Shown in pieces: positions 20,820 to 34,893 of a stretch of DNA of 64,000 nt. Position numbers and translations under genes: made by a program. Where the stretch lies: contig CAYYMH010000011.1 in assembly GCA_964472785.1 (NCBI GenBank), positions 22,783-86,782 on the forward strand, given 5' to 3'. The notes beneath the pieces were generated by a model that was given only the letters and a program-made list of their open reading frames with translations, made no database searches and was not told the origin of the DNA. Numbering within the stretch: position 1 is the stretch's first letter; every line of letters begins with the position of its first letter. The DNA comes from an uncultured Cytophagia bacterium (lineage in GTDB: Bacteria; Zhuqueibacterota; Zhuqueibacteria; Thermofontimicrobiales; Thermofontimicrobiaceae).

Positions 20820-20823
20820 GGCT

Positions 20824-21507: not shown

Positions 21508-21593
21508 TACAACCTAAAAGATATGAACCTCAAAGTTCACGAAGAACACAACGTTTGTAAAGAATTTTTCTGAATCTTTGTGAACTTTAGTTT

Positions 21594-21645
21594 GGAGTGC
21601 AATCCCTTTATGGATTGCATGCATCGCATGAAGGCGATGCACTCC
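21594..21645. repeat. REP-like palindromic hairpin pair (copy 4)
   Basis: ggagtgcaatccctttatggattgcatgc followed by gcatcgcatgaaggcgatgcactcc. It lies intergenic inside the carotenoid operon. Confidence 0.7.
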
Positions 21646-21707
21646 GAGGTACTTATAATTGAAAAGTACTTGACACCTCGCTCTTTTAAGAAGCAAAAAA
21701 ACCATTA

Positions 21708-22820
21708 CTATTTCACCGCAATCTCGCGTCCCTTCCAGCGGATTTTGCCCCGTTTAAAACTGAAAAATGAATTCAGCCCGATGGTGATGGCGTAAATGAT
21801 ACTCACCGGATGCAAAATCGTGCTCACCCAAAACGGATGTTTGTAACGGATCGCCAGCAGCGCCCGTAGCAACACATTCAATCCAATGGCAATCAACGCC
21901 AGCGTTCGGACTGACGGAATCATCCACAAAAAATACGGGTAAATAAAACCAATGATCAACGAAAAGATAATCCCGAAAAACGTCACGTTGTGATAGCCGG
22001 TCAAACCGTAAAAGTTTTTGGAGAATCCTTCCCAGACCTCACGTGCCGAGGAATACATCCGGCAATAGACCGCGCCGGTACCGGCAGTCGTGAGCGTCTT
22101 TTTTCCCTTCCGTTTGGCGATTCGGCTGAGCTCGGTGTCTTCCACTAAATGATTTTTCACGACATCGTGCCCCCCAATCTCACGGTAAGCTTTTTTGGTG
22201 AACGCAATCCACTGACCATTGGCGGCTGCCAGCGACGGATTGGGCGCGTAATAAGTTAGCCAGAGCGGCAGCGTCCCGTACACGAAGAAATCGACAATCG
22301 GCACAATCAGTTTTTCAGCAAATGTCACCGTCCGCTGCTGGGGAAAGGCAGAGACAAGGTCTAATTGATATTTCTGAAGGTACGCCACCGTATTCGAGAC
22401 CACGAATTTTTCGTGCTGATTATCCGCATCCGTAAAAATAAAGATCTCTCCTTGCGCTTTCTGACTGAGCTGATGACATGCCCAGTTTTTGCCTGTCCAG
22501 CCCGTGGGCAGCTTTTCTCCCTGAATCAGCCGCACCCGCGAATCTTTGGCAGCGAAATTATTGACAATTTCCTCCGTACCGTCAGTGGAATGATCATTCA
22601 ACACGATCACTTCAAAATTGGGATAATCCTGCTCAAGGATGCCGTTCAAACAATTGCCGATATTTGCCGCCTCGTTTCGTGCCGGAATTAAAACCGACAC
22701 TTTGGGAGTATCGGTCAATTGGGGCGCGTGTTTCAACCGCGGTCCCAGCAGCACATTCACCAGCGTTACTGTCAGCACCATTATCAGTAAGACGATTCCG
22801 ATTGTCAAAAGTATAAACAA
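21708..22820 (-). CDS. family 2 glycosyltransferase, probable carotenoid glycosyltransferase (CruC-like)
   Basis: The GT2 motifs are VLIPARNEA...VIVLNDHSTDGT and TDADNQ. It has C-terminal TM helices. It lies between the acyltransferase and the Caroten_synth gene. Confidence 0.7.
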   Translation of the reverse strand: MFILLTIGIVLLIMVLTVTLVNVLLGPRLKHAPQLTDTPKVSVLIPARNEAANIGNCLNGILEQDYPNFEVIVLNDHSTDGTEEIVNNFAAKDSRVRLIQGEKLPTGWTGKNWACHQLSQKAQGEIFIFTDADNQHEKFVVSNTVAYLQKYQLDLVSAFPQQRTVTFAEKLIVPIVDFFVYGTLPLWLTYYAPNPSLAAANGQWIAFTKKAYREIGGHDVVKNHLVEDTELSRIAKRKGKKTLTTAGTGAVYCRMYSSAREVWEGFSKNFYGLTGYHNVTFFGIIFSLIIGFIYPYFLWMIPSVRTLALIAIGLNVLLRALLAIRYKHPFWVSTILHPVSIIYAITIGLNSFFSFKRGKIRWKGREIAVK

Positions 22821-22821
22821 T

Positions 22822-23547
22822 TTAACCCCTCTGTTTTCGTTTCAATAGTTGATCCATTTTTTCGTTGATTGACTGCGCACCGGATAAAAGGACAGCGCCT
22901 CGCTCACCCGAAATGATTTGTTCTTCTAACTGATCCAGTAGTCCGTTTTCGATGCGTTCCAGCCAGGTCATTCCCTCAAAATTCGTTTGATCTAAAATAT
23001 AATTTTCACCGAACCGGAAAAACACAAGTGCCCGTTGCTCCCCCAAATATTCCGCCCGCATCGCCAGCGGCAGCACATTGATTGATTTGCCATATTTTTT
23101 AATGATCCAATCGACACCGCGTTTCAATCCGAGCGGACGTGTGCCCCACGGCAAAAGTTCTCCCTGCGGGAAAATGCAAATCGCCGGTGATGAAACCTGT
23201 TCAGACGTTAATAGTTCCAACGTGTAGTTGAGCGATTGATAAATTCCTTTTGAAGTCTCGAGATTGATACTGTACGCGCCCACTTTTGAGAAAAAATTAT
23301 ATTTACTTAGTTGCTGCTCCAGCATCATCAGGTATACTTTTCGATGCAGTATTTTTTTTTGCAATAAATAGATGAAAAATCCATCCCACCAGGTACTGTG
23401 ATTGGGCAATAAAAGCAGCGGTAATTTCGGATCCGTCTCCGGTAACTCTCCCAACAGATTGATGGAGTGGAAATGCTTTTTCATTAACCGGAACACGTAG
23501 AAGTGAAATAGTTTATCTGCCCACCATGTGTGTTGTGCTTTGATCAT
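22822..23547 (-). CDS. acyltransferase (PlsC/lysophospholipid acyltransferase fold), probable carotenoid-glycoside acyltransferase (CruD-like)
   Basis: The start was moved to the ATG at 23545-23547, which overlaps the crtB stop (ATGA). The HxxxxD motif is NHSTWWDG. Its position is next to the glycosyltransferase. Confidence 0.65.
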   Translation of the reverse strand: MIKAQHTWWADKLFHFYVFRLMKKHFHSINLLGELPETDPKLPLLLLPNHSTWWDGFFIYLLQKKILHRKVYLMMLEQQLSKYNFFSKVGAYSINLETSKGIYQSLNYTLELLTSEQVSSPAICIFPQGELLPWGTRPLGLKRGVDWIIKKYGKSINVLPLAMRAEYLGEQRALVFFRFGENYILDQTNFEGMTWLERIENGLLDQLEEQIISGERGAVLLSGAQSINEKMDQLLKRKQRG

Positions 23548-24518
23548 ATTTGTTTTTGCGCTCTTTGCGTCTTGGCGTGACGTTTCAGTTTCTCGGATTG
23601 TCGAGAAATTTTTTCTTCCCTGCGAATTTTTTCTTTCATCACTCTCCACCGGGTACGCCACACTTCCAGAAATAAGATAGCAAATTTTTTCACTTGCGGA
23701 ACGAACACTCTCCCCAAAAACGGATTGAAATCCTGAGCTTCAATTTTATTCAAAATCCCCCGATAAATTTTACTGGCGGAATAAATCGCAAACTGGGATT
23801 CTGTCGCCAGCATTGGAATGCCGAGGTCTGCTTCTTTATAATAATCATGGGCACGCTTTACCTGAAACTGCATCAACTTTTTGAAGTTATCATCCATTTT
23901 TTCATCAATCACATGCTGACGGTCAATTCCGAAGCGGTGCAACTCTTCCAGCGGAATGTAGATGCGTCCCATATTTTTGTCTTCCTGAATATCGCGTAAG
24001 ATATTGGTCAACTGCATGGCAATGCCTAATTTTTCCGCATATTGGAACGCTTTTTTATCTTTGTAGCCTAAAACATACGTCATCATTAAACCGACGACGC
24101 CTGCGACCCGATAGCAAAACGTGTACAAATCCTCGAAAGTTTCGTACTGTTTATTTTGAATATCCATTTGCACACCCTTAATCAGATCCAACGGGTACTC
24201 AATCGGAATCTTATATTTTTGAGCCACCACAATAAACGCCTGTACCACCGGATGCTCCGACTCTCCCGTACGGTAGGCGATTTTCATTTCTTTGGCTAAC
24301 GATGTAGCTTCACTGATCAATTCTGCGTCAGATCGCTTGCGCGGATTATCAATCAGATTATCGGCATGACGGCAAAAGCCGTACAAGCCAAATGTTGCCC
24401 ATCGCCGCTTAGGAGGTAACATCAGCGTTGAAATAAAAAAACTTTTTGAATGATGTGCCGTCGCCAAGCGTGCGTGCGTAAACGCTGCTTTGTGCGACGG
24501 TTCCTTCCAAAACTTCAA
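23544..24518 (-). CDS. crtB: phytoene synthase
   Basis: The squalene/phytoene synthase signatures are YCYRVAGVVGLMMTYVLG and DIQEDKNMGRIYIPLEEL. Confidence 0.85.
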   Translation of the reverse strand: MKFWKEPSHKAAFTHARLATAHHSKSFFISTLMLPPKRRWATFGLYGFCRHADNLIDNPRKRSDAELISEATSLAKEMKIAYRTGESEHPVVQAFIVVAQKYKIPIEYPLDLIKGVQMDIQNKQYETFEDLYTFCYRVAGVVGLMMTYVLGYKDKKAFQYAEKLGIAMQLTNILRDIQEDKNMGRIYIPLEELHRFGIDRQHVIDEKMDDNFKKLMQFQVKRAHDYYKEADLGIPMLATESQFAIYSASKIYRGILNKIEAQDFNPFLGRVFVPQVKKFAILFLEVWRTRWRVMKEKIRREEKISRQSEKLKRHAKTQRAQKQI

Positions 24519-24564
24519 AACGTTGACCTCATTTATTTGTGAATGTGACTAAATTGTTCGAAAA

Positions 24565-26043
24565 TTATTCCTCAAAATCTTTTAAAATCGCATATTCCGT
24601 GGCTTCTGATGTGAGTAACGTCCCCGGAATTCCGGCGCCCGGATGGGTGCTGGTTCCTACCAGATAAAAATTGTCGATATCTTCGCTCTTATTCGCCGGA
24701 CGGAAACTGGCTGTCTGAATAAGTTTCGGTTCCAGTCCCCAGGCACTGCCTAAATAATTATTGCAATGTTTTTTAAAATCTTCGGGCGTCACAATTTCCA
24801 TCACCTCGATGTTTTTCCGTAAATCCTCTAATCCGAAATCCTGCTCCAGAAATCTCAATATTTTTTCTGCAAAAATGGATTTCATTTCCGCCCAGTTAAT
24901 ATCACCGGCTAAATTGGGAACTGGAATCAGAAAATACATGCTCTCGCCGCCTTTGGGCGCCATTGATGGATCAGTGCGGGTTGGCGCGTGGGCATAGATT
25001 GAAAAATCATCGGATAAAATTTTCCGGTCGAAAATGTCATAAATCAGCTCCCGGTAACGCTTGGCAATGATCAAGGTGTGGTGCAGCAATTTCGGGTACT
25101 TTTTTCGGGAACCAATGTATAAAATGAATGCACTCATCGAATATGCCATGTTTTTGACGCGCCGGTCACTCCATTTCCGCCGATGCTCACTTTTGACTAA
25201 ATCGAGATATGTGTGCGCAAAATGCGCATTTGAGACGACCACATCCGCCATAAATTCCTTTTCACCGGCTTTCACGCCGACTGCTTTCTTATCTTTCACT
25301 ATCACTTCAGTGACTTCTGTGTTCGTTTCAATCGTCCCGCCAAGCTCCAGAAAGAGCTTTTCCAGTGCCTGAATAAAACTGTACATCCCGCCCTTTGAGA
25401 ACCAAACGCCACCTTCCTTTTCCAAATAAGGGATCATTAAATACACAGCCGGCGCCCGGAACGGATTACCGCCAATGAACAGCGTGTTAAACGAGAAGGT
25501 AAACACATTTCGAAAATCCTTGAAATAACGTTTAACCGCGTAGTACGAAGGCAACGGAACCCAGAGTTTCAGCGCTTTGGGTAAAAATTTCAACAGCGTT
25601 CCTTTTGAAAACGGCCGTTTCCCCAAGCCTTTTTTGATAACCGCATCGTGCATTTCTTCTGCATGTTTGATAAACCGCTCATAATTGTCCGCATCCTTTG
25701 GATTGTACTGTCCCAGTTGGGCTTTCATTTTTTCTGTATCGCCCTGGTAGTCGATGGTCGTGCCATCGTGAAAATAAATCCGGTAATACGGATCCAACAG
25801 TACCAGATCGAGATAATCTTCCATCTTTTTTCCGGCGGCTGAAAACACGTCCTGAATGATTTCCGGTGCTGTAATCAGTGACGGTCCCATATCAAATTTG
25901 TAATCGCCGACTTGCATGGGATAGGCGTGTCCGCCGGTCTTTTCATTTTTTTCCAGTATCGTTACCTGAAATCCTTTGGCTTGCAGCCGGATCCCCAGCG
26001 CAAGCCCGCCAAATCCTGAACCTATAATAATTGCTGTTTTCAT
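24565..26043 (-). CDS. crtI: phytoene desaturase
   Basis: It has the N-terminal FAD-binding fold MKTAIIIGSGFGGLALGIRL...EKNEKTGG and CrtI-family length (492 aa). It is adjacent to crtB. Confidence 0.85.
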   Translation of the reverse strand: MKTAIIIGSGFGGLALGIRLQAKGFQVTILEKNEKTGGHAYPMQVGDYKFDMGPSLITAPEIIQDVFSAAGKKMEDYLDLVLLDPYYRIYFHDGTTIDYQGDTEKMKAQLGQYNPKDADNYERFIKHAEEMHDAVIKKGLGKRPFSKGTLLKFLPKALKLWVPLPSYYAVKRYFKDFRNVFTFSFNTLFIGGNPFRAPAVYLMIPYLEKEGGVWFSKGGMYSFIQALEKLFLELGGTIETNTEVTEVIVKDKKAVGVKAGEKEFMADVVVSNAHFAHTYLDLVKSEHRRKWSDRRVKNMAYSMSAFILYIGSRKKYPKLLHHTLIIAKRYRELIYDIFDRKILSDDFSIYAHAPTRTDPSMAPKGGESMYFLIPVPNLAGDINWAEMKSIFAEKILRFLEQDFGLEDLRKNIEVMEIVTPEDFKKHCNNYLGSAWGLEPKLIQTASFRPANKSEDIDNFYLVGTSTHPGAGIPGTLLTSEATEYAILKDFEE

Positions 26044-26059
26044 AATTTTATCATTTCCT

Positions 26060-26089
26060 AAATTAGATTTTAACTATTTATTTAATCAT
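26060..26089. promoter_or_regulatory. candidate operator/regulatory repeat upstream of crtI (copy 1)
   Basis: aaattagattttaactatttatttaatcat recurs with about 85% identity at 26245-26277. Confidence 0.25.
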
Positions 26090-26244
26090 AAATTAACCGC
26101 CGAGCTCGCGGAAAACGCAGAGATTTTTTTTGAAAACATCTGATCTACGTTGAAAAACTGTCTATCATATATTATTTAACTAAATAAGTATTTGTTTTTT
26201 TATATTAATTCTTTCTTTGCGTTCTTTGCGTCTTCGCGGTGAAT

Positions 26245-26277
26245 AGTTAAATTAGGTTAACTGTTTTATTTAATCAT
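26245..26277. promoter_or_regulatory. candidate regulatory repeat (copy 2) at 3' end of second desaturase gene
   Basis: agttaaattaggttaactgttttatttaatcat is a direct repeat of 26060-26089. It partly overlaps the stop codon of the 493-aa gene. Confidence 0.2.
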
Positions 26278-27758
26278 CATTTCTTCTCTTTTTCCAAAAT
26301 CAAATCCGCACTCAATTTACCAGATAACATCACCAGCGGCACACCGCCACCGGGATGCGTCGAACCGCCGACAAAATACAACCCCTTTATTTCGCGGCTC
26401 CGGTTCGCCGGTCTGCGGAACGCCGTGGTTTTGTTATTTGAGGCGATGCCGTAAATGCTCCCCCGGTTGCTGCGGTAGTAATCATAAAAATCCTGCGGGG
26501 TGAATACTTTTTCAGTTTCAACTTTATCGGTTACATCTAATCCATTACTTTTCAGTTTATCCAAAACAAAATTCCGCATCCGATTGACAATATCGTCCCA
26601 CTGTTGCCCCTCTGCTAAATATGGCATATTTAAAAGAACGAACCAGTTTTCATGACCTTTCGGTGCGTGAGCTTTGTCGGTCTTGCTGCTGATGGCGATA
26701 TAAATAGTCGGATCGTCTGGTGCCTGTTTCTCTTTGAAAATGCTCTCAAATTCTGGTGCATAATCATTCGGGAAAATAATGTTATGATGCGCTAATTGAT
26801 CATATTCGCCTTTCACGCCCCACAGAAAAACCAGCCCTGACAACGACGGCTCGAACCGATTCAGCTTTTTCCGCTTTTTTTCGAAGCCGTCAATTAATTC
26901 GTTGTAAGCCACCACCACATCCGCGTTTGAGATTACATAATCCGCACTGATCTTTTCGCCGTTTACCTGAACTCCAATCACCTGCTTATTTTGTTGCAGA
27001 ATTCTTTCAACATGTGCGGATGTCGAAATGTTGACGCCATTTTCGCATGCTAATTTCTCAAGCACAGTTACCAGTTGAAACATCCCGCCTTTAATGTAAA
27101 AACTGCCCAGTCCGTACTCGACGTAAGGAATAATATTTAGCGTCGCCGGCGCCTGATACGGATTCGATCCATTGTAGGTGGCGTAGCGATCGAAAAGCTG
27201 AATGATTCTCGGATGTTTGAAAAAACGTGACACACCCTGATGCGCTGTTCTCATCGGATCGATCTGATACGCTCTGAACAGCGTCATAAAATTTTTCCAA
27301 TTGATCACTTTATTCGGTTCATGAATCGCGCTGTAAAGGAAAATATCAGCCGTCAAATCATAAATCCTTTTTCCGTAATTCATGAACGCTTCATACTGCT
27401 CCGCATCTTTCGGGGATAATTTTGCTATTTCCGGCCGCATCCGGTCTGTTTCCGTTGATGTATCCAGCGATGCCCCGTCCTCCCAAAAATAACGGCACAC
27501 CGGATCAATGGGCTCAAATGTTAAATAGTCCTCCCTTTTTTTACCAATAAATTGAAACAAATCATCCACCACAAAGGGCATGGTCAGAAGTGACGGTCCG
27601 GTATCAAATTGAAATCCCTGATCTTCAAAGCGGTTCATCTTCCCGCCCAATCTGTCATTTCGCTCGAACAGCTCAACATCGAAACCGCGATTTGCCAACC
27701 GAACCGCTGCGCTGAGTCCGCCTAATCCGCCGCCAATGACTGCAACTTTTTTACCCAT
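26277..27758 (-). CDS. CrtI-family carotenoid desaturase (second paralog; possibly CrtD-type 3,4-desaturase)
   Basis: The N-terminus reads MGKKVAVIGGGLGGLSAAVRL...ERNDRLGGK (FAD fold). It is 493 aa and is the second CrtI paralog in the operon. Confidence 0.8.
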   Translation of the reverse strand: MGKKVAVIGGGLGGLSAAVRLANRGFDVELFERNDRLGGKMNRFEDQGFQFDTGPSLLTMPFVVDDLFQFIGKKREDYLTFEPIDPVCRYFWEDGASLDTSTETDRMRPEIAKLSPKDAEQYEAFMNYGKRIYDLTADIFLYSAIHEPNKVINWKNFMTLFRAYQIDPMRTAHQGVSRFFKHPRIIQLFDRYATYNGSNPYQAPATLNIIPYVEYGLGSFYIKGGMFQLVTVLEKLACENGVNISTSAHVERILQQNKQVIGVQVNGEKISADYVISNADVVVAYNELIDGFEKKRKKLNRFEPSLSGLVFLWGVKGEYDQLAHHNIIFPNDYAPEFESIFKEKQAPDDPTIYIAISSKTDKAHAPKGHENWFVLLNMPYLAEGQQWDDIVNRMRNFVLDKLKSNGLDVTDKVETEKVFTPQDFYDYYRSNRGSIYGIASNNKTTAFRRPANRSREIKGLYFVGGSTHPGGGVPLVMLSGKLSADLILEKEKK

Positions 27759-28431
27759 TGGATTGCTTCCTCAAATTTTCATAAAAAATCACACACAAAA
27801 GTAAATGTGATATACCGTAAAAAAAATCTTCAATAGGTATCGTGAAAACTCGTAATCCGACTTGGTAACTTTCACCATACAAAACCACCGGACGCGCCGT
27901 CAGATAACCATTGAAAATTAAAATTAACAACAAAACAAGTCCTAAAAATTGATACGTTCGAAACTGTTTGAATATTTTTGTTTTTAAAAAATCGTCCGAT
28001 AATCCGACAACCCCAAACACAAACAATGCCAGACCGGTGTATTCTTTTCCAAAGAAAAACAGCACAATTCCGATCGGAATAAATATCATTAAAATCCGAT
28101 TTAAGTTATTTCCTAATCCTCCGATACTTTTATTCTCAAAATACGCTTTTAATACTTCCCAAATAAATAATGAAGAAAATGGAACCGTGACAAAGAAAAA
28201 CCATTCTTCGATAGGCAGTCCGAGCAAGCGAAAATTCATTGTATAGTTATCATTAAACCACCAATGCCTTCCTGTGACCAGCGCATCCCAAACAATAAAC
28301 AGAATCAACGGAATAGTTAACGCTTTGAAAACACGAAACCACTTGTCAACAAAATACACTTTTTTATCAAAGCTTAAGAGTAAAGGTCCGGTAATCACCA
28401 CAACATTAAAAATCAAATATTCAAATCTCAT
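27751..28431 (-). CDS. lycopene cyclase domain protein (fused CrtYcd-type heterodimeric-cyclase homolog)
   Basis: 226 aa membrane protein. It carries two halves that each have the PxE(E/D) cyclase motif region (LPIEEWFFF, IPIEDFFYG). Confidence 0.75.
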   Translation of the reverse strand: MRFEYLIFNVVVITGPLLLSFDKKVYFVDKWFRVFKALTIPLILFIVWDALVTGRHWWFNDNYTMNFRLLGLPIEEWFFFVTVPFSSLFIWEVLKAYFENKSIGGLGNNLNRILMIFIPIGIVLFFFGKEYTGLALFVFGVVGLSDDFLKTKIFKQFRTYQFLGLVLLLILIFNGYLTARPVVLYGESYQVGLRVFTIPIEDFFYGISHLLLCVIFYENLRKQSNG

Positions 28432-28988
28432 TCACGACTCAAATCATTTTTTATCTCATTCAACAGTTTCGACTCGTTCGATGTCAAATTTACCTTTTGC
28501 TCCATAAATTCAATCACATTAAGAATCAACTCAGGTTTGTAATCCTGAAATTGGTCAGGTAATAATTTAATAATTTTCCGAAAACTCCGCTCCGCATCGT
28601 CTTTCCGATTAAAGAAGAACGGAAGATAATAATTTGTGGATCCGTGGATAAACAACGCTTCGATATCTTCCGGGCTTTTTTCGATGCCTTCATCCATTAT
28701 ATCCAGACCGCGTTTTACCCATTTTAATTTATTATGCGGCATAAAGGAATGCTTCCCTTTGATTGCCATCAACGCTCCAAGGTATGTTCCGGATTTTCCT
28801 TCCAAGTTTTCATTCTTCTCAAGCTCTGAAAAAAGCCTGATTGCCTGATCTAATTTAGCTTCATCTTCTATCGACTGATAAAAATAGATTCGGGCTTGAT
28901 CTAATGTCTTATCAAAGTTTGAACCTGCAATCCCAACTGTAAAGTTAAAAGTAAACACAGATATTAATAATAAGTAATTCGTCTTCAA
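28428..28988 (-). CDS. hypothetical secreted protein (first gene of carotenoid operon)
   Basis: It has a signal peptide. Its start overlaps the cyclase gene start region by 4 nt. No recognisable domain was found. Confidence 0.4.
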   Translation of the reverse strand: MKTNYLLLISVFTFNFTVGIAGSNFDKTLDQARIYFYQSIEDEAKLDQAIRLFSELEKNENLEGKSGTYLGALMAIKGKHSFMPHNKLKWVKRGLDIMDEGIEKSPEDIEALFIHGSTNYYLPFFFNRKDDAERSFRKIIKLLPDQFQDYKPELILNVIEFMEQKVNLTSNESKLLNEIKNDLSRE

Positions 28989-29225
28989 TTTTAATTCTCC
29001 TCGAAACTAATTTTAAATAAATACATCTAAATAGGCGATAAAAGCTTTTTATTTTTAGTTTCTATTAAATCATCATTCTGATAAAAGTTCATATCGCTTA
29101 TATTTTTGAAATTTAGATTCACGACATTAAATTTGGTTTCACAAAAAATTTGAGTTGTTTAATTTTAACTTTTAACTAATTAGCGTTAATTTTTTTAAAA
29201 AGTCAAGGAAAAAAGGATTAAATTA

Positions 29226-30677
29226 ATGAAAAATAATAAAAAAATATTACTGACGGGCGCAACAGGTTACATCGGTGGGCGGCTACTCAGAGTTCTGAAA
29301 GAAGCTGGCTATTCGATTCGTTGTATGGCACGGCGTCCTGAATCATTATCTCATTGGAAAGATGGAAACACAGAAATTGTTTACGGTGATCCGCTTAACA
29401 AAGATTCTCTAAACACAATTTTTGAAGGTGTTGACGTCGCATTTTATTTTATCCATTCACTGGGTTCAAAAGAAAGTTTTATGGAGCCGGATCGGATTGC
29501 AGCAGAAAACTTCAGCAAAGCTGCAAAATCGCAAGGCGTCAAACGTATCGTATATCTTGGAGGTCTCGCCAATCCGGATGAGGAGCTATCTGATCATCTC
29601 AAAAGCCGGCTGGAGGTTGCTGACTACTTAAGAAGTTCTGGAATTCAAGTTATCGAATTTCGGGCTTCCATTATTTTAGGTTCCGGCAGTTTGTCTTTTG
29701 AAATGATTCGCGCTCTGGTGGAACGCCTGCCTGTGATGATCATTCCCAAATGGGTCAGAGTCAAAGCCCAGCCAATAGCTATCGAAGATGTGACAGATTA
29801 TTTGATGGCTGCAATTGATCTTGAGACCGAAGAGAATAAAATTTATGAAATTGGCGGTGCCAATAAAACATCGTACATGGGCATTATGAAGGAGTACGCC
29901 CGCCAGCGCGATTTGAAACGGTTGATGATTCCGGTGCCTGTTTTGACGCCCAAGCTGTCAAGTCTATGGCTCGGTTTAGTGACACCGCTGTATGCGCGAA
30001 TCGGGAGAAAGCTGGTCGACAGCATTAAACATCCCACGGTTGTACGTGATAAATCCGTACTGAAGGATTTTGATATTCAGCCCAAAACAGCAAAAAATGC
30101 GGTGAAAGCAGCTCTATGTAATGAAGAACGGGAGTTTGCCGAGACGAAGTGGTCTGATTCATTAGCTTCAACCGGAAATTCGCCACGTGATTGGGGCGGT
30201 ATTCGTTTTGGCAATCGTATTTTGGACATTCGAGAAAAACATGTTGATGTTTCGCCGGAACAGGCTTTTGCGCCCATCCGAAAGATAGGTGGAGATGTCG
30301 GCTGGTACTACGCCAATTGGCTTTGGAAACTGCGCGGTTTTCTGGATATTTTGGTTGGCGGTGTTGGTTTACGCCGCGGAAGAAGGAATCCGGATTCTGC
30401 TAACATTGGGGATACGATTGATTTTTGGCGGGTGCAAGCTTTTGAACCGGACAAGAAACTCCGTCTATTAGCAGAGATGAAGCTACCGGCGCGCGCATGG
30501 TTAAATTTTGATGTGGAAGCAGGAGAAAACGGTGGTTCAGTAATACGTCAAACTGTGGAATACGATCCGATTGGACTGTGGGGCATTTTATACTGGTATC
30601 TCGTCTATCCGCTGCATCTATTTATTTTCTCCGGTATGATCCGAAATATTGCCAAAGCAGCCGTAGCAAAAGATTAA
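29226..30677 (+). CDS. NAD(P)-binding SDR/epimerase-family protein with C-terminal DUF2867-like domain
   Basis: The Rossmann motif is LLTGATGYIGGRL. It has a YbjT-like architecture with a roughly 150-aa C-terminal extension. Confidence 0.7.
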   Translation: MKNNKKILLTGATGYIGGRLLRVLKEAGYSIRCMARRPESLSHWKDGNTEIVYGDPLNKDSLNTIFEGVDVAFYFIHSLGSKESFMEPDRIAAENFSKAAKSQGVKRIVYLGGLANPDEELSDHLKSRLEVADYLRSSGIQVIEFRASIILGSGSLSFEMIRALVERLPVMIIPKWVRVKAQPIAIEDVTDYLMAAIDLETEENKIYEIGGANKTSYMGIMKEYARQRDLKRLMIPVPVLTPKLSSLWLGLVTPLYARIGRKLVDSIKHPTVVRDKSVLKDFDIQPKTAKNAVKAALCNEEREFAETKWSDSLASTGNSPRDWGGIRFGNRILDIREKHVDVSPEQAFAPIRKIGGDVGWYYANWLWKLRGFLDILVGGVGLRRGRRNPDSANIGDTIDFWRVQAFEPDKKLRLLAEMKLPARAWLNFDVEAGENGGSVIRQTVEYDPIGLWGILYWYLVYPLHLFIFSGMIRNIAKAAVAKD

Positions 30678-31175
30678 TTTTGTATCTAATCAAAATTCTA
30701 AAACAAATAGTAAAAGAGAATGGATCACTTATTGATAAATTTTGAGTGCAGCAACTGTGTTGCTGCATGAAGTAACATAGTTACTTCACTCCAAAAATAA
30801 AATAGTAACTTACACATAGTTAATCAAATAGTAACCATACTAAAAATATTCAATTTAGAGGAAACACGCGAAATAGCGCTAAAACCAAAATTAAAAAATA
30901 GTGTTTAGTGGCTGAACGGAAACTCTTATTTTTGTTATTTTGAGGAGTACCTCGTCAAGCTCGGCATAAACTCCACGACGAAAAATATCATCCTACTAAG
31001 TGGCTGTCTATTTTAAGCTTAGTAGTGTAAGATTCTTCATCCGCCAAAGGCGGATTCAGAATGACATTTTTGTTTCGTTCAATGACTACTTAGTGATTTT
31101 TTGTGTGTTTAGTGGGCTACAGTTAGATAGTTTTTAGTTAATTTTAGATTTAATTTCTATTATTGAGTAACGAAA

Positions 31176-32060
31176 ATGGAAACGAAAATCAAATATTTCA
31201 ATAGTCAAGAAGCGGCGAAAATTCTAAACGTCAACGTTTCAACTATCAAGCGCTGGACAGATGAAGGGGAGCTGAATTGTATCCGAACGGCTGGTGGTCA
31301 CCGCAAGTTTACGATGCAGCATTTGGCAGAACATTTGAGAAAGAATAAAAAGAAAACCAGTAAAGACCATTTCTTTCCGATTGAGGATGAACAAGACATG
31401 GTTGTCAATTCCCATATTTTAAAGGGGAATTATGATTTTTTGATTGACTATGTTTTTGAAGTGGCAAAAAATGCTAATCGTCAAAAAGTGCAACATGTAC
31501 TAAATGGTTTGTATGTCAGGCGATTTCCTTTGCACGAAATTTACGATAAACTACTTACCCCGGTTCTTCATCGCAATGGTGAAGACTGGGAACAAGGAAA
31601 GATTAATATTGTACAGGAACACTTTAGCACGCAAATTATCCGCGATATGATTATCCAATTACAAAGTATCGTTCAAATTTCAAAAGAGAAACATGGGAAA
31701 GCATTTTGCCTGACTCTATCAACAGAAATGCATGACATTGCGATCAAAATGGTTCAACATATTTTGGAATTGAACGGATTTCAGGTGCTTTACAGTGGGC
31801 AAATGACGCCAACCTTGAGGATTGAGCAAATATTCGAACTTCATAAACCGGACTATCTGTTTATCTCCAGTACCATCATTTCCGATTTAAATCTGAATCA
31901 AGCTGAATTTGATAAAATTTGCCACATGAGCGAAAAGTATGGAGCGGATATTTATGTTGGTGGACAGGGATTTGACCAAATTGACCATAATCACATCACT
32001 GTGAAATCCAGATTATTTTCTTTCAAACAATTAGATTCATTGTTCAATGATAGTAAATGA
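31176..32060 (+). CDS. carH: CarH/LitR-type light-dependent transcriptional regulator (MerR HTH + AdoCbl-binding domain)
   Basis: The N-terminal MerR-type HTH is AAKILNVNVSTIKRWTDEGEL. The Wx9EH motif is WEQGKINIVQEH. The B12-binding E/DxHxxG-like motif is EMHDIA. At 294 aa it matches CarH in length. Confidence 0.8.
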   Translation: METKIKYFNSQEAAKILNVNVSTIKRWTDEGELNCIRTAGGHRKFTMQHLAEHLRKNKKKTSKDHFFPIEDEQDMVVNSHILKGNYDFLIDYVFEVAKNANRQKVQHVLNGLYVRRFPLHEIYDKLLTPVLHRNGEDWEQGKINIVQEHFSTQIIRDMIIQLQSIVQISKEKHGKAFCLTLSTEMHDIAIKMVQHILELNGFQVLYSGQMTPTLRIEQIFELHKPDYLFISSTIISDLNLNQAEFDKICHMSEKYGADIYVGGQGFDQIDHNHITVKSRLFSFKQLDSLFNDSK

Positions 32061-32297
32061 TATGACGATTATTCAGATAATTTATGTAATTTATAAATAT
32101 GAGAACCCTTTCCGTTAAAAAACCATCCAAATTACAAACGCTTATAACGCTCAATTTAAAGGAACAATATATTTGGAGGATTCTACCATGCAATTCTTAA
32201 AATCTTTATTTACAGTAATATTTGTAGTTTCAGTGATTTTCTTGTTAATTTTAGTATAAAAAATTATAAAAAGTAACTATATTGGGGAGTTTAAGAG

Positions 32298-34640
32298 ATG
32301 TTAAAGAAAATTTTTGGGTTATTCGGATTTTTAACAATAATATTTATTTCTACTGCATTTACTCAACCAAAAGGTGCGATCAGTGGAACTGTGGTTGATG
32401 CCCGAACAAAAGAACCATTAATTGGAGTGAATGTCGTTGTAGTTGGAACGATCACCGGTGCATCAACAGATTTAAAGGGACAATATGTTATTAAAAATGT
32501 ACCAGTAGGGACTTACCGCTTGCGCTTCGATTATATCGGCTATGAATCCAAATTAAAGACAGATGTCGTCGTTATTTCAGCACGCCCAACAACGGTAAAC
32601 GCTGAATTGAACGAAACTGTGATTGAAGGACAGGAAGTCACCGTAACTGCTGGTTATTTTGTCGAAGAAGAAAAAGTTCAACCCAGTACAATTGGACTGA
32701 CGCGTGAGGAAATTCGTCGCTTTCCGGGCGGTTTTGAAGACGTCGTGAGAACTGTGTCCACTTTACCCGGTGTTGCCATCAACTCCGCCGGCGGGCGAAA
32801 TGATTTACTGGTTCGCGGCGGAGGCCCTTCAGAAAATTTATATACGATTAATAACATCGAAGTCCCAAATATTAATCATTTCGGTTCACAGGGTAACAGC
32901 AGCGGAAGTTTGAGTTTTGTTAATTTGGATTTTGTACAGGATGTCACTTTTTCCACTGGAGGATTTTCCGCTCGCTATGGCGACAAAATGTCGTCTGTCC
33001 TTTCTTTGCAGATGTTGAATAAAATTCCGGAAAGCTTCGAAAGTAAGATCACTATTTCAGCAACACAATACGGACTCGATACTGAAATACCGATTCAGGA
33101 TAAAGGTAACTTTATCTTTTCGGCAAGGAGGAGTTATCTCGACTTAATTTTCAAAGCGGCAGGACTGCCGTTTGTACCGATTTACACTGACTTTAATATT
33201 TTTGCAAATTATGATTTGTCACCTAAAGACAAAATTTTCTTTTTAGGTTTATCTGCCATAAATAATGTTGACAGAGATCAAAGTTCGCTGGAGAACCGTG
33301 TCCGCAATGCCGGACTGCTGGATAACTCACAGTATCAGGGAATATCCGGACTTAACTACCGGCGATTGCTGAATAATGGATATATTGATTTGACGCTTGG
33401 CATGAATCTATTCCGTTATCGTTTCAGCCAACTTGACCAGAATGAAATCGAATACTTCAAAAGCGATGCCGACGAATGGGAAAATAGTGTCAAACTTCAG
33501 CACTATTGGGTGGCGACCAAGACTTTTGGCGTCAGAAGCGGCTTGTCCGCGAAATTTATCCGTAATGATAACACCACCAGTTTTGCGGATACCATTTATG
33601 ACCGCAGTGGAAATCGCGTCCCGGTTTCGGCAATTGGTGTTGATCCCTTTGTCAAGACGAACACACGGGCTCAGAAATATGCCGCTTTTATGGAAGTGGA
33701 TTGGCTGCTGCACCCTTGGTTCAATGTTAATGCTGGATTGAGGGCAGATTATTATGAGTTTTTGAGTGACAAATTATATTTGGCACCACGCCTGTCGGTG
33801 AAATACAAACTCACTGATAAAATTTCGATCCGAACCAGCGGCGGGATCTATTACCAATCTCCCTCGTATGTGTGGGTAGTAAATCCATTCAATGAACAAC
33901 TTAAGGCATTGCAAAATCGGATGGCAGTTGTAGGCTGGGATTATCTTTTTCGCGATGATCTCCGGATGTCTTTGGAAGGCTACTATAAAAAATACAGTGA
34001 TCTACCCAGCGGCATTGTTCCCGGTGTAACGGATTATCTGGTACTGACGAACACAGGTACCGGCTTTGGCGGGAGACAGGATGACTTCCAGTCTTTTGGC
34101 TATTATGATTTAACATCGTCAGCGACTGGTATCGCTTACGGTTCAGAATTATTGGTCCAGAAAAAATTCTCTGAAATTCCGCTTTACGGATTATTCAGCT
34201 TGACATACAGCAAATCCGAAGTTACTGCCAATAACGGAATGACCTATCCGGGTCAATACGATCAGCGGTTTATTTTGAATTTATCCGGAGGCTATATTTT
34301 CAATGACAAGTGGGAAATCGCTGCCAAATTCCGCTATTTTACCGGAGTTCCGTACACTACGCTGTATCGTCCGTCAAAAAATCCGACGAATCCCGGATCG
34401 ATTCAGAATTTGCCAGCGGATTATCTGACGTCCCGAACGCCAGCGGGTCACCATCTGGATGTACGGGTTGATCGTTATTTTAATTTTAGCAGTTACACGC
34501 TGATTGTTTACCTCGATATTCAAAATATTTATGATTACAAAATTCCACAGCGACCGAGTTACGATTTTTGGGCAGACGAAATTAACACCAGTAGTGATAT
34601 TGGAATTCTACCGTCGATTGGGATTAGTTTGGAATTGTGA
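32298..34640 (+). CDS. TonB-dependent outer-membrane receptor with N-terminal carboxypeptidase-regulatory-like domain
   Basis: It has a signal peptide. A CarbopepD_reg-like beta-sandwich (GTVVDARTKEPLIGVNVVVVGT...YRLRFDYIGYE) precedes a plug and a beta-barrel. It ends with a C-terminal aromatic residue pattern. Confidence 0.75.
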   Translation: MLKKIFGLFGFLTIIFISTAFTQPKGAISGTVVDARTKEPLIGVNVVVVGTITGASTDLKGQYVIKNVPVGTYRLRFDYIGYESKLKTDVVVISARPTTVNAELNETVIEGQEVTVTAGYFVEEEKVQPSTIGLTREEIRRFPGGFEDVVRTVSTLPGVAINSAGGRNDLLVRGGGPSENLYTINNIEVPNINHFGSQGNSSGSLSFVNLDFVQDVTFSTGGFSARYGDKMSSVLSLQMLNKIPESFESKITISATQYGLDTEIPIQDKGNFIFSARRSYLDLIFKAAGLPFVPIYTDFNIFANYDLSPKDKIFFLGLSAINNVDRDQSSLENRVRNAGLLDNSQYQGISGLNYRRLLNNGYIDLTLGMNLFRYRFSQLDQNEIEYFKSDADEWENSVKLQHYWVATKTFGVRSGLSAKFIRNDNTTSFADTIYDRSGNRVPVSAIGVDPFVKTNTRAQKYAAFMEVDWLLHPWFNVNAGLRADYYEFLSDKLYLAPRLSVKYKLTDKISIRTSGGIYYQSPSYVWVVNPFNEQLKALQNRMAVVGWDYLFRDDLRMSLEGYYKKYSDLPSGIVPGVTDYLVLTNTGTGFGGRQDDFQSFGYYDLTSSATGIAYGSELLVQKKFSEIPLYGLFSLTYSKSEVTANNGMTYPGQYDQRFILNLSGGYIFNDKWEIAAKFRYFTGVPYTTLYRPSKNPTNPGSIQNLPADYLTSRTPAGHHLDVRVDRYFNFSSYTLIVYLDIQNIYDYKIPQRPSYDFWADEINTSSDIGILPSIGISLEL

Positions 34641-34675: not shown

Positions 34676-34704
34676 CCTTGACAAAGTCAGGATATTTGAT
34701 ATAT
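34676..34704 (+). promoter_or_regulatory. possible sigma70-like promoter (TTGACA-N17-ATATTA) upstream of the Ntn-hydrolase/photolyase operon
   Basis: ttgaca is at 34676-34681, followed by a 17-nt spacer and atatta at 34699-34704. It lies about 190 nt upstream of the ATG at 34894. Confidence 0.25.
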
Positions 34705-34893
34705 TATGAGAAAGACAGCAAGCCAGAGTAGAATAATACACACGTCAAATTCCCTACTCAGTCTTAAATTGTTGCCGTCTTTTGAGTGCCCACTAAACAT
34801 ACTCAATACACAATAATTTTCGTTGAGTTTAAAACATTTCTTTGTGAAGCATAATCCACGAATCATAAATTATCAAGCATAAGGCGGGAATTT

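What the first reader, a model, noticed from the sequence alone, without database searches (positions are those of the whole stretch)
30678..32060. CarH-type AdoCbl photoreceptor with full Wx9EH signature and a repeat-dense 500-bp leader
The 294-aa regulator has a MerR HTH and a B12-binding domain. The latter carries WEQGKINIVQEH (Wx9EH) and EMHDIA (E/DxHxxG-like). These are the residues that cap adenosylcobalamin in CarH.
- It sits between a 9-gene carotenoid operon and a photolyase operon.
- Its 500-bp upstream region is unusually structured.
- It contains repeats of AAATAGTAA(C) at 30706, 30799 and 30826.
- It contains repeats of TTAGTGGCT-like motifs at 30905, 30997 and 31109.
- It contains a perfect 9-bp inverted repeat tgcagcaac-tgt-gttgctgca at 30748-30768.
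- It contains a 7-bp hairpin atccgcc-aaa-ggcggat at 31038-31057.
The direct repeats are plausible CarH operator half-sites.
Basis: partly seen in the sequence, partly recalled or inferred. Interest (0 to 1): 0.5.

Follow-up and report, generated by a model that had tools for sequence, protein, structure and literature searches.

The report
B12 light-sensor gene; operator lies elsewhere
The gene does encode a vitamin-B12-based light-sensing repressor of a recently described subtype, but the repeats in the 500 bases in front of it are not its binding sites; those sites lie at two neighbouring promoters, and part of the 500 bases is a common hairpin-forming repeat element.

Summary
The ORF at 31176-32060 is a CarH-like adenosylcobalamin photoreceptor. 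It carries Wx9EH, the His ligand, SxT and GG, all invariant in 24 homologues. It belongs to the CtMerR-like branch (PDB 8JBS, E 7e-32 over the full length), which has a BldC/excisionase-type DNA-binding domain. It is not a canonical CarH: NCBIfam CarH scores 50.7 bits against a cutoff of 400.

The 498-bp upstream region really is repeat- and hairpin-rich (p<=0.005 against shuffles). It holds no operator, however. Footprinting across 80 orthologous loci gave a family motif, a tandem 9-bp direct repeat AACGCTCAW. In the whole 64-kb window its two best matches are:
- 32135-32158, upstream of the TonB-dependent receptor gene;
- 29082-29105, abutting the -35 of the SDR promoter and facing the crt operon.

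The leader's best score is below zero, and it has no single unit and no canonical 11-bp CarH repeat.

In the nearest relatives carH is a distal gene of the operator-controlled SDR operon. Here two intervening genes are absent, and the spacer carries a ~140-nt MITE-like palindromic element (30932-31071; at least 79 distinct copies in metagenomes). It also carries lineage-specific tandem palindromes of unknown function.

This is a new member of a known kind, of modest interest.

The parts
31176..32060 (+). carH-like gene: BldC/excisionase-type wHTH (about residues 7-57), a four-helix B12-binding_2 cap with Wx9EH, and a Rossmann B12-binding domain with the His186 ligand
   Evidence: Pfam. Invariant residues. 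PDB 8JBS CtMerR E 7e-32 over residues 6-268, whereas TtCarH matches the cobalamin-binding domain only. NCBIfam.
32135..32158 (+). Predicted operator O_tbdr. Two tandem 9-bp units, AACGCTTAT (32137) and AACGCTCAA (32146), overlap the -35 position of a putative promoter whose -10 is TATATT at 32168-32173
   Evidence: Best PWM hit in the whole window, 26.3. Unit scan. The equivalent sites in L001, L002, L004, L007, L008 and L009 precede the orthologous receptor gene, or in L002/L004 an ~806-aa gene at that position that gave no match to it. The promoter is read from the sequence.
29082..29105 (+). Predicted operator O_sdr. Units AAAGTTCAT (29084) and ATCGCTTAT (29093) directly abut the -35 of the SDR promoter
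   Evidence: Second-best PWM hit in the window, 23.0. Unit scan. Same geometry as L001 1689 (operator, 2 nt, TTGACT-17-TATATT).
29027..29050 (-). Weak partner operator facing the crt operon (AAAAAGCTTTTATCGCCTATTTAG)
   Evidence: PWM 12.7, fourth in the window. It is not above the whole-window null maximum, but sits 55 bp from the + site on the opposite strand. Orthologues show such pairs 57-76 bp apart.
29106..29133 (+). Sigma-70-like promoter TTGAAA-16-TAAATT of the SDR(-carH) transcription unit
   Evidence: Consensus scan. Its position relative to the operator matches the orthologues.
29226..30677 (+). SDR/NmrA-DUF2867 gene, first gene of the operator-controlled unit
   Evidence: Pfam. 76-77% identical orthologues head the carH-containing operons of L001 and L007.
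30678..31175 (+). 498-bp spacer (the 'leader') between the SDR gene and carH, with no operator
   Evidence: In L001 the same interval holds DUF523/DUF1722 and DUF6992/ATP10-like genes. No remnant of them is detectable.
30747..30788 (.). Two abutting perfect 21-bp palindromes, TGCAGCAAC-tgt-GTTGCTGCA and TGAAGTAAC-ata-GTTACTTCA, 70 nt after the SDR stop codon. Function unknown; probably RNA hairpins (terminator or processing/stabiliser) or the site of an unknown dimeric protein
   Evidence: Unique in the window (2 observed against 0.17 expected). Absent from 172 loci. RNA fold of 30678-30860 is -37.8 kcal/mol, z -4.2.
30796..30835 (+). Direct repeats AATaAAATAGTAAC / AATcAAATAGTAAC 26 bp apart, with ACATAGTTA copies at 30775 and 30814. 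Lineage-specific, function unknown
30932..31071 (+). Degenerate copy of a widespread MITE/REP-like palindromic element. It has terminal inverted repeats TGTTATTTTGA...TCAGAATGACA, an internal AGATTCTTCA box, a central hairpin CTACTAAG/CTTAGTAG and the hairpin ATCCGCC/GGCGGAT, followed by TTTTTGTTT. It is flanked by the 9-bp direct repeat ATTTTTGTT (30928, 31066)
   Evidence: 73% identity over 96 bp to L008 4848-4943, E 2e-9. The alignment shows compensatory stem changes. 92 matches, 79 of them distinct, in metagenome contigs. nhmmer 43 bits, E 9e-12. Fold -39.6 kcal/mol, z -3.0. No Rfam family.
32298..34640 (+). TonB-dependent receptor gene (CarboxypepD_reg + Plug + barrel), a predicted regulon member
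   Evidence: Pfam. A receptor homologue lies next to carH in 28 of 80 loci. In 9 loci a PWM site of at least 20 precedes it: L001, L009, L038, L049, L061, L063, L066, L071 and L053.
20100..28988 (-). Carotenoid cluster, divergent from the SDR promoter. Genes in order: unknown 186 aa, lycopene cyclase, two CrtI-type desaturases, phytoene synthase, acyltransferase, GT2, 63-aa ORF, CruF-type, FA_desaturase-type
   Evidence: Pfam. Lycopene cyclase and CrtI lie divergent from carH in 30-32 of 80 loci.

Best explanation
Protein (shown): ORF 31176-32060 encodes an AdoCbl-dependent light-sensing repressor of the CtMerR-like branch of the CarH family. It joins a CarH-type cobalamin-binding module (Wx9EH cap, His186 lower ligand) to a BldC/excisionase-type winged-helix domain.

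Mechanism (inferred by homology): in the dark the AdoCbl-bound oligomer binds tandem 9-bp direct repeats (consensus AACGCTCAW, two units per site) that overlap or abut -35 elements. Green, blue or UV light cleaves the Co-C bond, the oligomer dissociates and the promoters open.

Sites in this window: the predicted sites are not in the 498-bp leader.
- One set lies in the divergent region between the crt operon and the SDR gene: 29082-29105 on the + strand, with a weak partner at 29027-29050 on the - strand.
- The other lies between carH and the TonB-dependent receptor gene, at 32135-32158.

Transcription of carH (inferred): carH is most likely a distal gene of the light-controlled SDR transcription unit, as it is in its closest relatives, and so is autoregulated from about 2 kb upstream.

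The leader: it is the intercistronic spacer of that unit.
- The two genes found there in relatives are absent.
- About 140 nt are a degenerate copy of a widespread MITE/REP-like palindromic element with a U-run after it, which may attenuate read-through.
- The remainder carries lineage-specific tandem palindromes and ATAGTAAC repeats. These most plausibly act as RNA hairpins (3' end, processing or stability of the SDR message) rather than as CarH sites.
For: Protein:
- Domain content.
- W138, H149, E184, H186, S231, T233, G262 and G263 are invariant and E148 nearly invariant in 24 homologues.
- Full-length match to CtMerR 8JBS, E 7e-32. [quoted passage not shown]
- The DNA-binding domain hits NCBIfam HTH_BldC (3.5e-11) and PDB BldC 6AMA (E 6e-4).
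- BldC binds 9-bp direct repeats AATTnnnnC head-to-tail, for example AATTCGGTC (PMC5859096).

Operator:
- 86 sites in 52 loci lie within 400 nt upstream of carH, typically one on the + strand abutting TTGACA and one on the - strand 57-68 bp away.
- 136 PWM sites of at least 20 occur in 751 kb of loci, against 0 in simulated sequence. All 43 sites outside the training zone are intergenic.
- The motif recurs upstream of CtMerR itself and of a Pyrinomonadaceae homologue.
- In the window the two top hits are 26.3 and 23.0, against a null maximum of 11.0 +/- 2.7 (largest 18.1). Each consists of exactly two units at a 9-bp offset.
- The 29082 site abuts the promoter TTGAAA-16-TAAATT, as in L001.

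Layout:
- L001 reads operator, SDR, DUF523/DUF1722, DUF6992/ATP10-like, carH (gaps 16, 9 and 42 nt), operator, TonB receptor.
- L007 has operators ahead of SDR, DUF523/DUF1722 and carH, and further sites after carH; its contig ends before any receptor gene. L008 and L009 have a divergent operator pair directly upstream of carH and a second pair ahead of the TonB receptor.

Leader:
- PWM maximum -6.4 and zero single units.
- No canonical CarH repeats.
- MITE-like element.
- No sigma-70-like + strand promoter reaches the scan threshold in the leader.
Against: - No experiment: DNA binding, AdoCbl binding and light response are all inferred for this protein.
- The operator assignment rests on co-occurrence with carH. 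Another factor could in principle bind the motif.
- The partner site at 29027 (12.7) is not above the whole-window null maximum.
- Co-transcription of SDR and carH across 498 nt with three strong hairpins and a U-run is unproven. Weak promoter-like pairs, TTAGTT-18-TATTAT at 31134-31163 and TTGTGT-17-TAGATA at 31101-31129, could give carH its own constitutive promoter.
- The palindromes and ATAGTAAC repeats exceed chance and remain without an assigned function.
- The glycine of the GxxH signature element of PMC11796333 is Thr here, and B12-binding (PF02310) is 0.2 bits under its cutoff.
Confidence: 0.65

Rival explanations
1. One reading: the AAATAGTAAC and TTAGTGGCT direct repeats in the leader are the half-sites to which this CarH binds, autoregulating its own promoter.
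For: The repeats are real and locally enriched. Three of the 11 window matches to AAATAGTAAC (at most 1 mismatch) fall within 131 bp. Repeat density in the leader exceeds shuffles. CarH-type proteins do bind direct repeats (PMC9304148).
Against: - Spacings of 26, 95, 92 and 112 bp do not fit tandem 9- or 11-bp arrays.
- There is no match to the family motif, even at single-unit level, or to the canonical TnnACA repeats.
- The DNA-binding domain is nearly invariant in the family, so a private specificity is unlikely.
- The motifs are absent from all fetched loci.
- One TTAGTGGCT-like copy sits in the loop of a MITE-like element.
Confidence: 0.04
2. The tandem 21-bp palindromes (30747-30788), perhaps with the ATAGTAAC repeats, are the operator of a second, unidentified dimeric regulator, or an RNA-level switch, that controls carH independently of light.
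For: - Two abutting perfect palindromes share the pattern TGnAGnAAC-N3-GTTnCTnCA, with 2 observed against 0.17 expected.
- AGTAAC recurs 9 nt before the carH ATG (31167) and 26 nt before the receptor ATG (32272).
- The arms can cross-pair into an alternative long hairpin, and 30678-30860 folds with z -4.2.
Against: - There is no conservation anywhere and no candidate regulator.
- The position 70 nt after a stop codon is typical of 3'-end hairpins.
- No Rfam family matches.
Confidence: 0.15
3. The leader is functionless debris: sequence left after loss of the DUF523/DUF1722 and ATP10-like genes, plus a MITE insertion and local duplications.
For: Relatives have genes in this interval. The MITE-like copy is degenerate at its 5' end and flanked by a possible 9-bp target duplication. 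GC content falls to 0.28-0.38.
Against: No protein-level remnant is detectable. Two perfect 9-bp palindromes are unlikely to persist in neutrally decaying sequence (p 0.007).
Confidence: 0.15
4. The AACGCTCAW tandem repeat is bound not by the CarH-like protein but by another regulator of photoprotection genes that merely co-occurs with carH.
For: There is no direct binding evidence. The PWM was trained on carH-proximal regions.
Against: - carH is the only regulator gene common to the loci, which span KSB1, Calditrichota, Marinimicrobia/Fidelibacterota and Acidobacteriota.
- The 9-bp head-to-tail repeat with an A/T tract followed by CGnTC closely matches the BldC half-site AATTCGGTC, and the DNA-binding domain is BldC-like.
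- The sites overlap the promoters of carH itself.
Confidence: 0.08

Closest known systems
CtMerR of Chloracidobacterium thermophilum (PDB 8JBS/8JBT; Yu et al. 2024, PMC11796333)
   Same: Full-length homology (E 7e-32, residues 6-268). It shares the HTH_17/BldC-type N-terminal domain and the GxxW, EH and GxxxP signature elements with the His ligand. The CtMerR cobalamin-binding domain is an AdoCbl-bound tetramer that becomes a monomer in green light. The same 9-bp repeat motif lies upstream of its gene.
   Different: The match is distant; relatives of this family score 34-41% identity to CtMerR. Thr replaces the Gly of GxxH. The host is an AT-rich KSB1/Calditrichota-type lineage. carH sits inside an SDR operon next to a TonB-dependent receptor gene. 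No operator was reported for CtMerR; the motif here is my inference.
Canonical CarH/LitR (Thermus thermophilus 5C8D-F, Myxococcus xanthus, Bacillus megaterium)
   Same: AdoCbl photoreceptor-repressor logic, Wx9EH plus the E/DxHxx(G/P)...SxT...GG motif, control of crt genes, operators made of tandem direct repeats overlapping -35, and frequent autoregulation (PMC9304148).
   Different: Only the cobalamin-binding domain aligns (E 5e-7, residues 121-215). NCBIfam CarH equivalog scores 50.7 bits against a cutoff of 400. The operators are 11-bp nnnnTnnACAn repeats, which are absent here. The predicted units are 9 bp and of different sequence.
BldC of Streptomyces (PDB 6AMA/6AMK; Schumacher et al. 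2018, PMC5859096)
   Same: The DNA-binding domain type matches (NCBIfam HTH_BldC 3.5e-11; PDB E 6e-4). BldC binds 9-bp direct repeats head-to-tail with an A/T tract followed by a C-G pair. Compare AATTCGGTC with AAAACGCTC here.
   Different: BldC is a 68-residue stand-alone domain with no sensor module. The HMM score here (42.8) is below the family cutoff (77).
MITE/REP-type palindromic repeat elements of bacteria
   Same: About 120-150 nt, with terminal inverted repeats, conserved boxes around variable hairpins, many copies across contigs, a possible 9-bp target duplication, and a hairpin plus U-run that can act as a terminator or stabiliser.
   Different: This family (TGTCATTCTGAGGAGCGAAGCGACGAAGAATC...AGATTCTTCAC...TTCAGAATGACA) has no Rfam model, and a text search for its sequence found no paper. 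Mobility has not been shown. There is only one copy in this 64-kb window.

Membership tests
CarH/LitR AdoCbl photoreceptor (canonical) | Wx9EH cap motif over the adenosyl group | tested here: met
   W138-x9-E148-H149. W138 and H149 are invariant and E148 nearly invariant in 24 homologues.
CarH/LitR AdoCbl photoreceptor (canonical) | B12-binding motif E/DxHxx(G/P)-x41-SxT/V-x22-27-GG, with His as lower axial ligand | tested here: inconclusive
   E184-M-H186-D-I-A189 has Ala in place of Gly/Pro; family members have Ala or Pro. S231-x-T233 follows exactly 41 residues later. G262-G263 follows 28 residues after that. All are invariant. PF02310 scores 31.9 bits against a cutoff of 32.1.
CarH/LitR AdoCbl photoreceptor (canonical) | Whole-protein match to the curated CarH model | tested here: not met
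   NCBIfam NF052513 TransRegCarH scores 50.7 bits against a cutoff of 400, covering residues 100-218 only. TtCarH structures align only over residues 121-216.
CarH/LitR AdoCbl photoreceptor (canonical) | Operator of three or four tandem 11-bp repeats nnnnTnnACAn overlapping the promoter | tested here: not met
   No match with up to 2 mismatches in the leader or in the promoter regions. Four matches occur elsewhere in the window, against 7.6 expected.
CarH/LitR AdoCbl photoreceptor (canonical) | AdoCbl binding, dark oligomer, and light-induced dissociation and DNA release | not testable with these tools
   Needs purified protein. Shown only for the homologue CtMerR's cobalamin-binding domain (PMC11796333).
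CtMerR-like branch (HTH_17/BldC-type DNA-binding domain + CarH-type cobalamin-binding domain) | Full-length sequence homology to CtMerR, including the DNA-binding domain | tested here: met
   8JBS E 7e-32, query residues 6-268 against chain residues 16-286.
CtMerR-like branch (HTH_17/BldC-type DNA-binding domain + CarH-type cobalamin-binding domain) | Light-response signature GxxW, EH, GxxH, GxxxP (PMC11796333) | tested here: inconclusive
   G135-E-D-W138, E148-H149 and G208-Q-M-T-P212 are present. GxxH reads T183-E-M-H186, and the Gly is not conserved anywhere in this clade.
CtMerR-like branch (HTH_17/BldC-type DNA-binding domain + CarH-type cobalamin-binding domain) | Tandem 9-bp AACGCTCAW repeats at promoters next to the gene (defined here, not in the literature) | tested here: met
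   Window sites at 32135 (26.3) and 29082 (23.0), against a null maximum of 18.1. 52 loci carry the motif. It also occurs in the CtMerR locus L173 at 3830 and 4004.
BldC family of wHTH regulators | Match to the BldC HTH model or structure | tested here: inconclusive
   NF033787 HTH_BldC scores 42.8 bits, E 3.5e-11, below the cutoff of 77. PDB 6AMA E 5.9e-4 over residues 11-47.
BldC family of wHTH regulators | Head-to-tail binding to 9-bp direct repeats (A/T tract + nnnn + C) | not testable with these tools
   Only the sequence pattern fits: period 9, AAAACGCTC against AATTCGGTC. Binding has not been measured.
MITE/REP-like palindromic repeat (TGTCATTCTGAGGAG...TTCAGAATGACA family) | Terminal inverted repeats and conserved internal boxes shared with many independent copies | tested here: met
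   The window has TGTTATTTTGAGGAG...CGACGAAAAAT...AGATTCTTCA...TTCAGAATGACA. The AGATTCTTCA box and the 5' TGTnATT were not part of the search pattern, yet they match the family consensus. nhmmer gives E 9e-12, which is partly circular because the retrieval pattern came from the window and L008.
MITE/REP-like palindromic repeat (TGTCATTCTGAGGAG...TTCAGAATGACA family) | Target-site duplication and evidence of mobility | tested here: inconclusive
   A 9-bp direct repeat ATTTTTGTT lies at both ends (D7), but it is T-rich and overlaps the element termini. No empty site is available for comparison.

The most novel reading that the evidence does not exclude
CarH homologues with a BldC-type DNA-binding domain, found in KSB1, Calditrichota, Marinimicrobia and Acidobacteriota and including the crystallised CtMerR, use a previously undescribed operator. 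It consists of tandem 9-bp AACGCTCAW repeats, often as two inverted two-unit sites about 55-76 bp apart, which suggests that one tetramer bridges both sites. Their conserved regulon includes carotenoid genes, an outer-membrane TonB-dependent receptor that is frequently adjacent and, in some genomes, ribA. That would amount to light-gated uptake, conceivably of the corrinoid chromophore itself. Within the finding's own coordinates, the unexplained palindromes and the 12-nt complementarity between the leader (31106-31117) and the 5' UTR of the 34894 operon could add an RNA-level layer of control.
Probability: 0.2. Interest if true: 0.6.

Novelty: new member of a known kind. Interest (0 to 1): 0.3.

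Why it matters
For this window the result is mostly corrective. The photoreceptor gene is real, but the conspicuous repeats in front of it are not its operator, and annotating them as such would be wrong.

The wider value is a by-product. The CtMerR-like branch of B12 photoreceptors was described in 2024 as likely having 'an alternative DNA-binding site', but no site was given. The comparison of 80 loci yields a concrete, testable operator: 9-bp BldC-like direct repeats. It also yields a conserved regulon of crt genes, an SDR/DUF2867 gene, a TonB-dependent receptor and ribA. This could guide EMSA or structural work and the design of optogenetic parts. The analysis also flags an uncurated, widespread palindromic repeat family.

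Tried and rejected
- A single-protein scan of genome contigs found no relative, because the closest is only about 61% identical. It was repeated with an alignment.
- The exact protein occurs on one contig only, so no close orthologous leader exists for nucleotide alignment.
- Rfam gave nothing in 28000-34000 at E<=1 apart from a chance miRNA hit. It gave nothing in the whole window at gathering thresholds and nothing on clean copies of the repeat element. This rules out a cobalamin riboswitch or a known sRNA.
- Pseudogene remnants of the DUF523/DUF1722 and ATP10-like genes in the leader: tblastn against the window (E<=1) and against the leader alone (E<=10) gave only noise, no better than unrelated control proteins.
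- Small ORFs in the leader (at most 55 aa) lie in the SDR tail or inside the repeat element and were not pursued.
- The canonical CarH 11-bp repeat is absent.
- The family motif with up to 3 mismatches is not enriched window-wide (9 matches against 9.0 expected). Only the PWM and the positions are informative.
- TGTTTAGTGGGC and TTAGTGG are not enriched window-wide.
- The TonB receptor has no detectable BtuB signature: NCBIfam and PDB give only generic SusC/RagA N-terminal matches. B12 uptake therefore remains speculation.
- A literature search for the repeat element's sequence returned nothing.
Full report
OBSERVATION

The ORF at 31176-32060 (+, 294 aa) is real. Pfam assigns it an N-terminal HTH_17/MerR-type helix-turn-helix (residues 7-57), a B12-binding_2 cap (101-159) and a B12-binding Rossmann domain (175-267; 31.9 bits against a cutoff of 32.1). 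The quoted motifs are present: W138-x9-E148-H149 and E184-x-H186. In an alignment of 24 homologues W138, H149, E184, H186, S231, T233, G262 and G263 are invariant and E148 nearly invariant.

The listed repeats and hairpins exist, within one base of the stated coordinates. It abuts the first and shares the pattern TGnAGnAAC-N3-GTTnCTnCA.

The region is statistically unusual.
- It has 22 exact 8-mer repeat pairs against 5.7 +/- 4.1 in dinucleotide shuffles (p 0.002).
- It has three independent perfect hairpins with stems of at least 7 bp against about 0.3-0.5 expected (p <= 0.005).
- It has the strongest joint repeat and hairpin excess of the 16 gaps left by a rough ORF selection of the window, some of which are in fact coding.

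The stated context is approximate. An SDR/DUF2867 gene (29226-30677) separates the leader from the crt cluster on the - strand. A TonB-dependent receptor gene (32298-34640) separates carH from the operon that ends in a DPRP photolyase-related gene.

WHAT THE PROTEIN IS

The closest homologues are about 60% identical. They come from candidate division KSB1, Zhuqueibacterota, Calditrichia and Marinimicrobia MAGs. The exact protein is known from a single contig.

Against solved structures the best match by far is CtMerR of Chloracidobacterium thermophilum (8JBS), at E 7e-32 over residues 6-268. Thermus CarH matches only the cobalamin-binding part, at E 5e-7 over residues 121-215.

CtMerR was reported in 2024. 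[quoted passage not shown] Its DNA-binding domain differs from CarH, which the authors took to suggest 'an alternative DNA-binding site' (PMC11796333).

NCBIfam agrees with this placement. The CarH equivalog model scores 50.7 bits against a cutoff of 400. The N-terminus hits the BldC HTH subfamily (3.5e-11, though below its cutoff) and the excisionase domain model. PDB BldC (6AMA) is also hit, at E 6e-4.

Of the four signature elements of that paper, GxxW, EH and GxxxP are present. GxxH reads T-E-M-H here. So 'CarH-type AdoCbl photoreceptor' is right in function and in the cobalamin-binding domain, but the protein belongs to the CtMerR-like branch.

WHERE THE OPERATOR IS

I fetched 80 loci that encode relatives and inspected the DNA upstream of each gene. 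A very clear motif emerged: a tandem direct repeat (A)ACGCTCA-wAw-CGCTCA, that is, 9-bp units with consensus AACGCTCAW.
- 86 copies (at most 2 mismatches) lie within 400 nt upstream of the gene in 52 loci.
- Typically one copy is on the + strand and abuts a TTGACA -35 at about -70 to -80. A second is on the - strand 57-68 bp further upstream, facing the divergent crt genes.
- A 24-column PWM finds 136 sites of at least 20 bits in the 751 kb of loci, against none in simulated sequence.
- All 43 sites outside the training zone are intergenic. They precede TonB-receptor orthologues, the SDR/DUF2867 gene, the 186-aa first gene of the crt operon, and GTP cyclohydrolase II genes.
- The motif also lies upstream of CtMerR itself and of a Pyrinomonadaceae homologue.

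The period of 9 and the layout 'A/T tract then CGnTC' resemble the BldC half-site AATTnnnnC, for example AATTCGGTC, which BldC protomers bind head-to-tail (PMC5859096). This fits the BldC-like domain. Canonical CarH proteins instead bind tandem 11-bp nnnnTnnACAn repeats (PMC9304148).

I then scanned the whole 64-kb window on both strands with the PWM. Simulated 64-kb sequences give a maximum of 11.0 +/- 2.7, with a largest value of 18.1.
- The best hit is 32135-32158 (+; CAAACGCTTATAACGCTCAATTTA; 26.3). It lies between the carH stop and the TonB-receptor start.
- The second is 29082-29105 (+; TAAAAGTTCATATCGCTTATATTT; 23.0). It lies in the divergent crt/SDR region and directly abuts the promoter-like TTGAAA-16-TAAATT at 29106-29133.
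- The fourth hit, 29027-29050 (-; 12.7), lies 55 bp from the second on the opposite strand. This mirrors the paired layout of the orthologues.
- The best score anywhere in the leader is -6.4.
- With a single-unit PWM the leader has no unit of at least 7 bits. Each of the two predicted operators consists of exactly two units 9 bp apart.
- The canonical CarH pattern is also absent from the leader.

The DNA-binding domain of this protein is almost identical to those of the relatives: F8, N9, S10, A13, A14, L17, V19-S22, I24-T28 and G40-F45 are invariant. Transferring the family motif to this window is therefore justified.

WHY THE LEADER IS THERE

The closest relatives show the same architecture as the window.
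- L001 reads operator, SDR/DUF2867 (77% identical), DUF523/DUF1722, DUF6992/ATP10-like, carH (gaps of 16, 9 and 42 nt), operator, TonB receptor (75% identical).
- L007 has operators ahead of SDR, DUF523/DUF1722 and carH, and further sites after carH; its contig ends before any receptor gene. L008 and L009 have a divergent operator pair directly upstream of carH and a second pair ahead of the TonB receptor.

So carH in this lineage is a distal gene of an operator-controlled operon, and the receptor gene downstream has its own operator. In the window the two intervening genes are absent and 498 non-coding bases take their place. No protein-level remnant of those genes can be detected.

PARTS OF THE LEADER

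The repeat element (30932-31071).
- It is 73% identical over 96 bp to a sequence downstream of the TonB receptor in L008 (E 2e-9).
- The two copies share the termini TGTyATTyTGAGGAG...TTCAGAATGACA. They keep two internal stems through different sequences: CTACTAAG/CTTAGTAG against ATACCAC/GTGGTAT, and ATCCGCC/GGCGGAT against ATGCGCC/GGCGCAT.
- A pattern built from the shared blocks retrieved 92 matches, 79 of them distinct, from metagenome contigs.
- These share further conserved boxes that were not in the pattern and that the window copy also has, notably AGATTCTTCA.
- A profile of them scores the window copy at 43 bits (E 9e-12). That value is partly circular, because the retrieval pattern was derived from the window.
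- The element folds into a multi-branched structure closed by its termini (-39.6 kcal/mol, z -3.0) and is followed by TTTTTGTTT.
- It is flanked by a 9-bp direct repeat, ATTTTTGTT.
- No Rfam family covers it, and I found no paper containing its sequence.

The first 255 nt. These hold the two abutting palindromes, 70 nt after the SDR stop, and the ATAGTwAC repeats. They are unique in the window and absent from all 172 loci fetched. As RNA the segment is strongly structured (z -4.2). Their function cannot be settled without a closer relative or an experiment.

The last 100 nt. These hold only weak promoter-like hexamers. No + strand promoter in the leader reaches the scan threshold.

MECHANISM, WITH STEPS MARKED

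Shown:
- domain content and motif conservation;
- full-length homology to a biochemically characterised AdoCbl photoreceptor;
- a conserved cis-motif tied to carH across four phyla;
- the motif's presence at two promoters of this window and its absence from the leader;
- the conserved operon layout;
- membership of part of the leader in a repeat family.

Inferred:
- the protein binds that motif as an AdoCbl-loaded oligomer in the dark and releases it in light;
- carH is transcribed from the SDR promoter through the spacer;
- the hairpins act at the RNA level.

VERDICT

The gene call is right. The operator interpretation of the leader repeats is not supported. The locus is a new member of a known and recently defined kind. 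The most useful output is the predicted operator and regulon for the CtMerR-like branch, which lies outside the coordinates of the original finding.

Noticed in passing
window 32189-32260 (+): A 23-codon ORF, MQFLKSLFTVIFVVSVIFLLILV*, with a GGAGG 8 nt upstream. It lies between the predicted operator (32135-32158) and the TonB-dependent receptor start (32298). It could be a small hydrophobic leader or membrane peptide.
   Followed up: no
window 34680-34707 and 34780-34799; leader 30740-30749 and 31106-31117: A near-consensus promoter, TTGACA-16-TATATT, precedes the operon 34894-38843 (C45-like/unknown, Fer4, DPRP photolyase-like), which has no family operator. Its 5' UTR contains TTTTGAGTGC followed by CCACTAAACA. 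The first is repeated at 30740 in the leader. The reverse complement of the second (TGTTTAGTGGGC, 12 nt exact) is at 31106. This may be chance (my estimate about 0.02-0.05 for the 12-mer), a shared site, or RNA-RNA complementarity.
   Followed up: partly
L001 6412, L009 6015, L038 8453, L049 4553/4562, L053 1672, L061 8411, L063 2581, L066 2567, L071 8438; window 32298-34640: A TonB-dependent receptor (CarboxypepD_reg + Plug + barrel) homologous to the window's lies next to carH in 28 of 80 loci. In the 9 loci listed here an operator site of at least 20 precedes it. It has no BtuB signature, and its ligand is unknown.
   Followed up: partly
L011 7192-7938, L022 6101-6757, L028 8132-8767, L032 5883-6515: GTP cyclohydrolase II (RibA-like) genes are preceded by high-scoring copies of the same operator motif. 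This suggests that riboflavin synthesis belongs to the light regulon in some Calditrichia.
   Followed up: no
L173 3830-3853 and 4004-4027 (Chloracidobacterium thermophilum B, CP002514.1): The two best PWM hits of the 9-kb CtMerR locus lie in the region upstream of the gene and over its annotated TTG start. This suggests that the annotated start is too far upstream and that the crystallised protein uses the same operator type.
   Followed up: partly
L008 5165-5195; L002 about 4880-4900: Other palindromic repeats of the GTCATTCC...GGAATC type (for example GTCATTCCGGGCTTGTCCCGGAATC) occur in related loci. Modules such as CCCTTCG...GCTCAGGrTAAAyTCC are shuffled between copies of the element family (for example L153 against the window).
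   Followed up: no
window 28428-28988 (-): The first gene of the crt operon encodes a 186-aa protein with no Pfam or NCBIfam match. Homologues lie divergent from carH in 12 loci.
   Followed up: partly
window 39856-44499 (+): A 1547-aa protein with papain-type peptidase C1, BACON and type IX secretion C-terminal sorting domains. Together with the sigma-70-like promoters, it is consistent with an FCB-group host.
   Followed up: no
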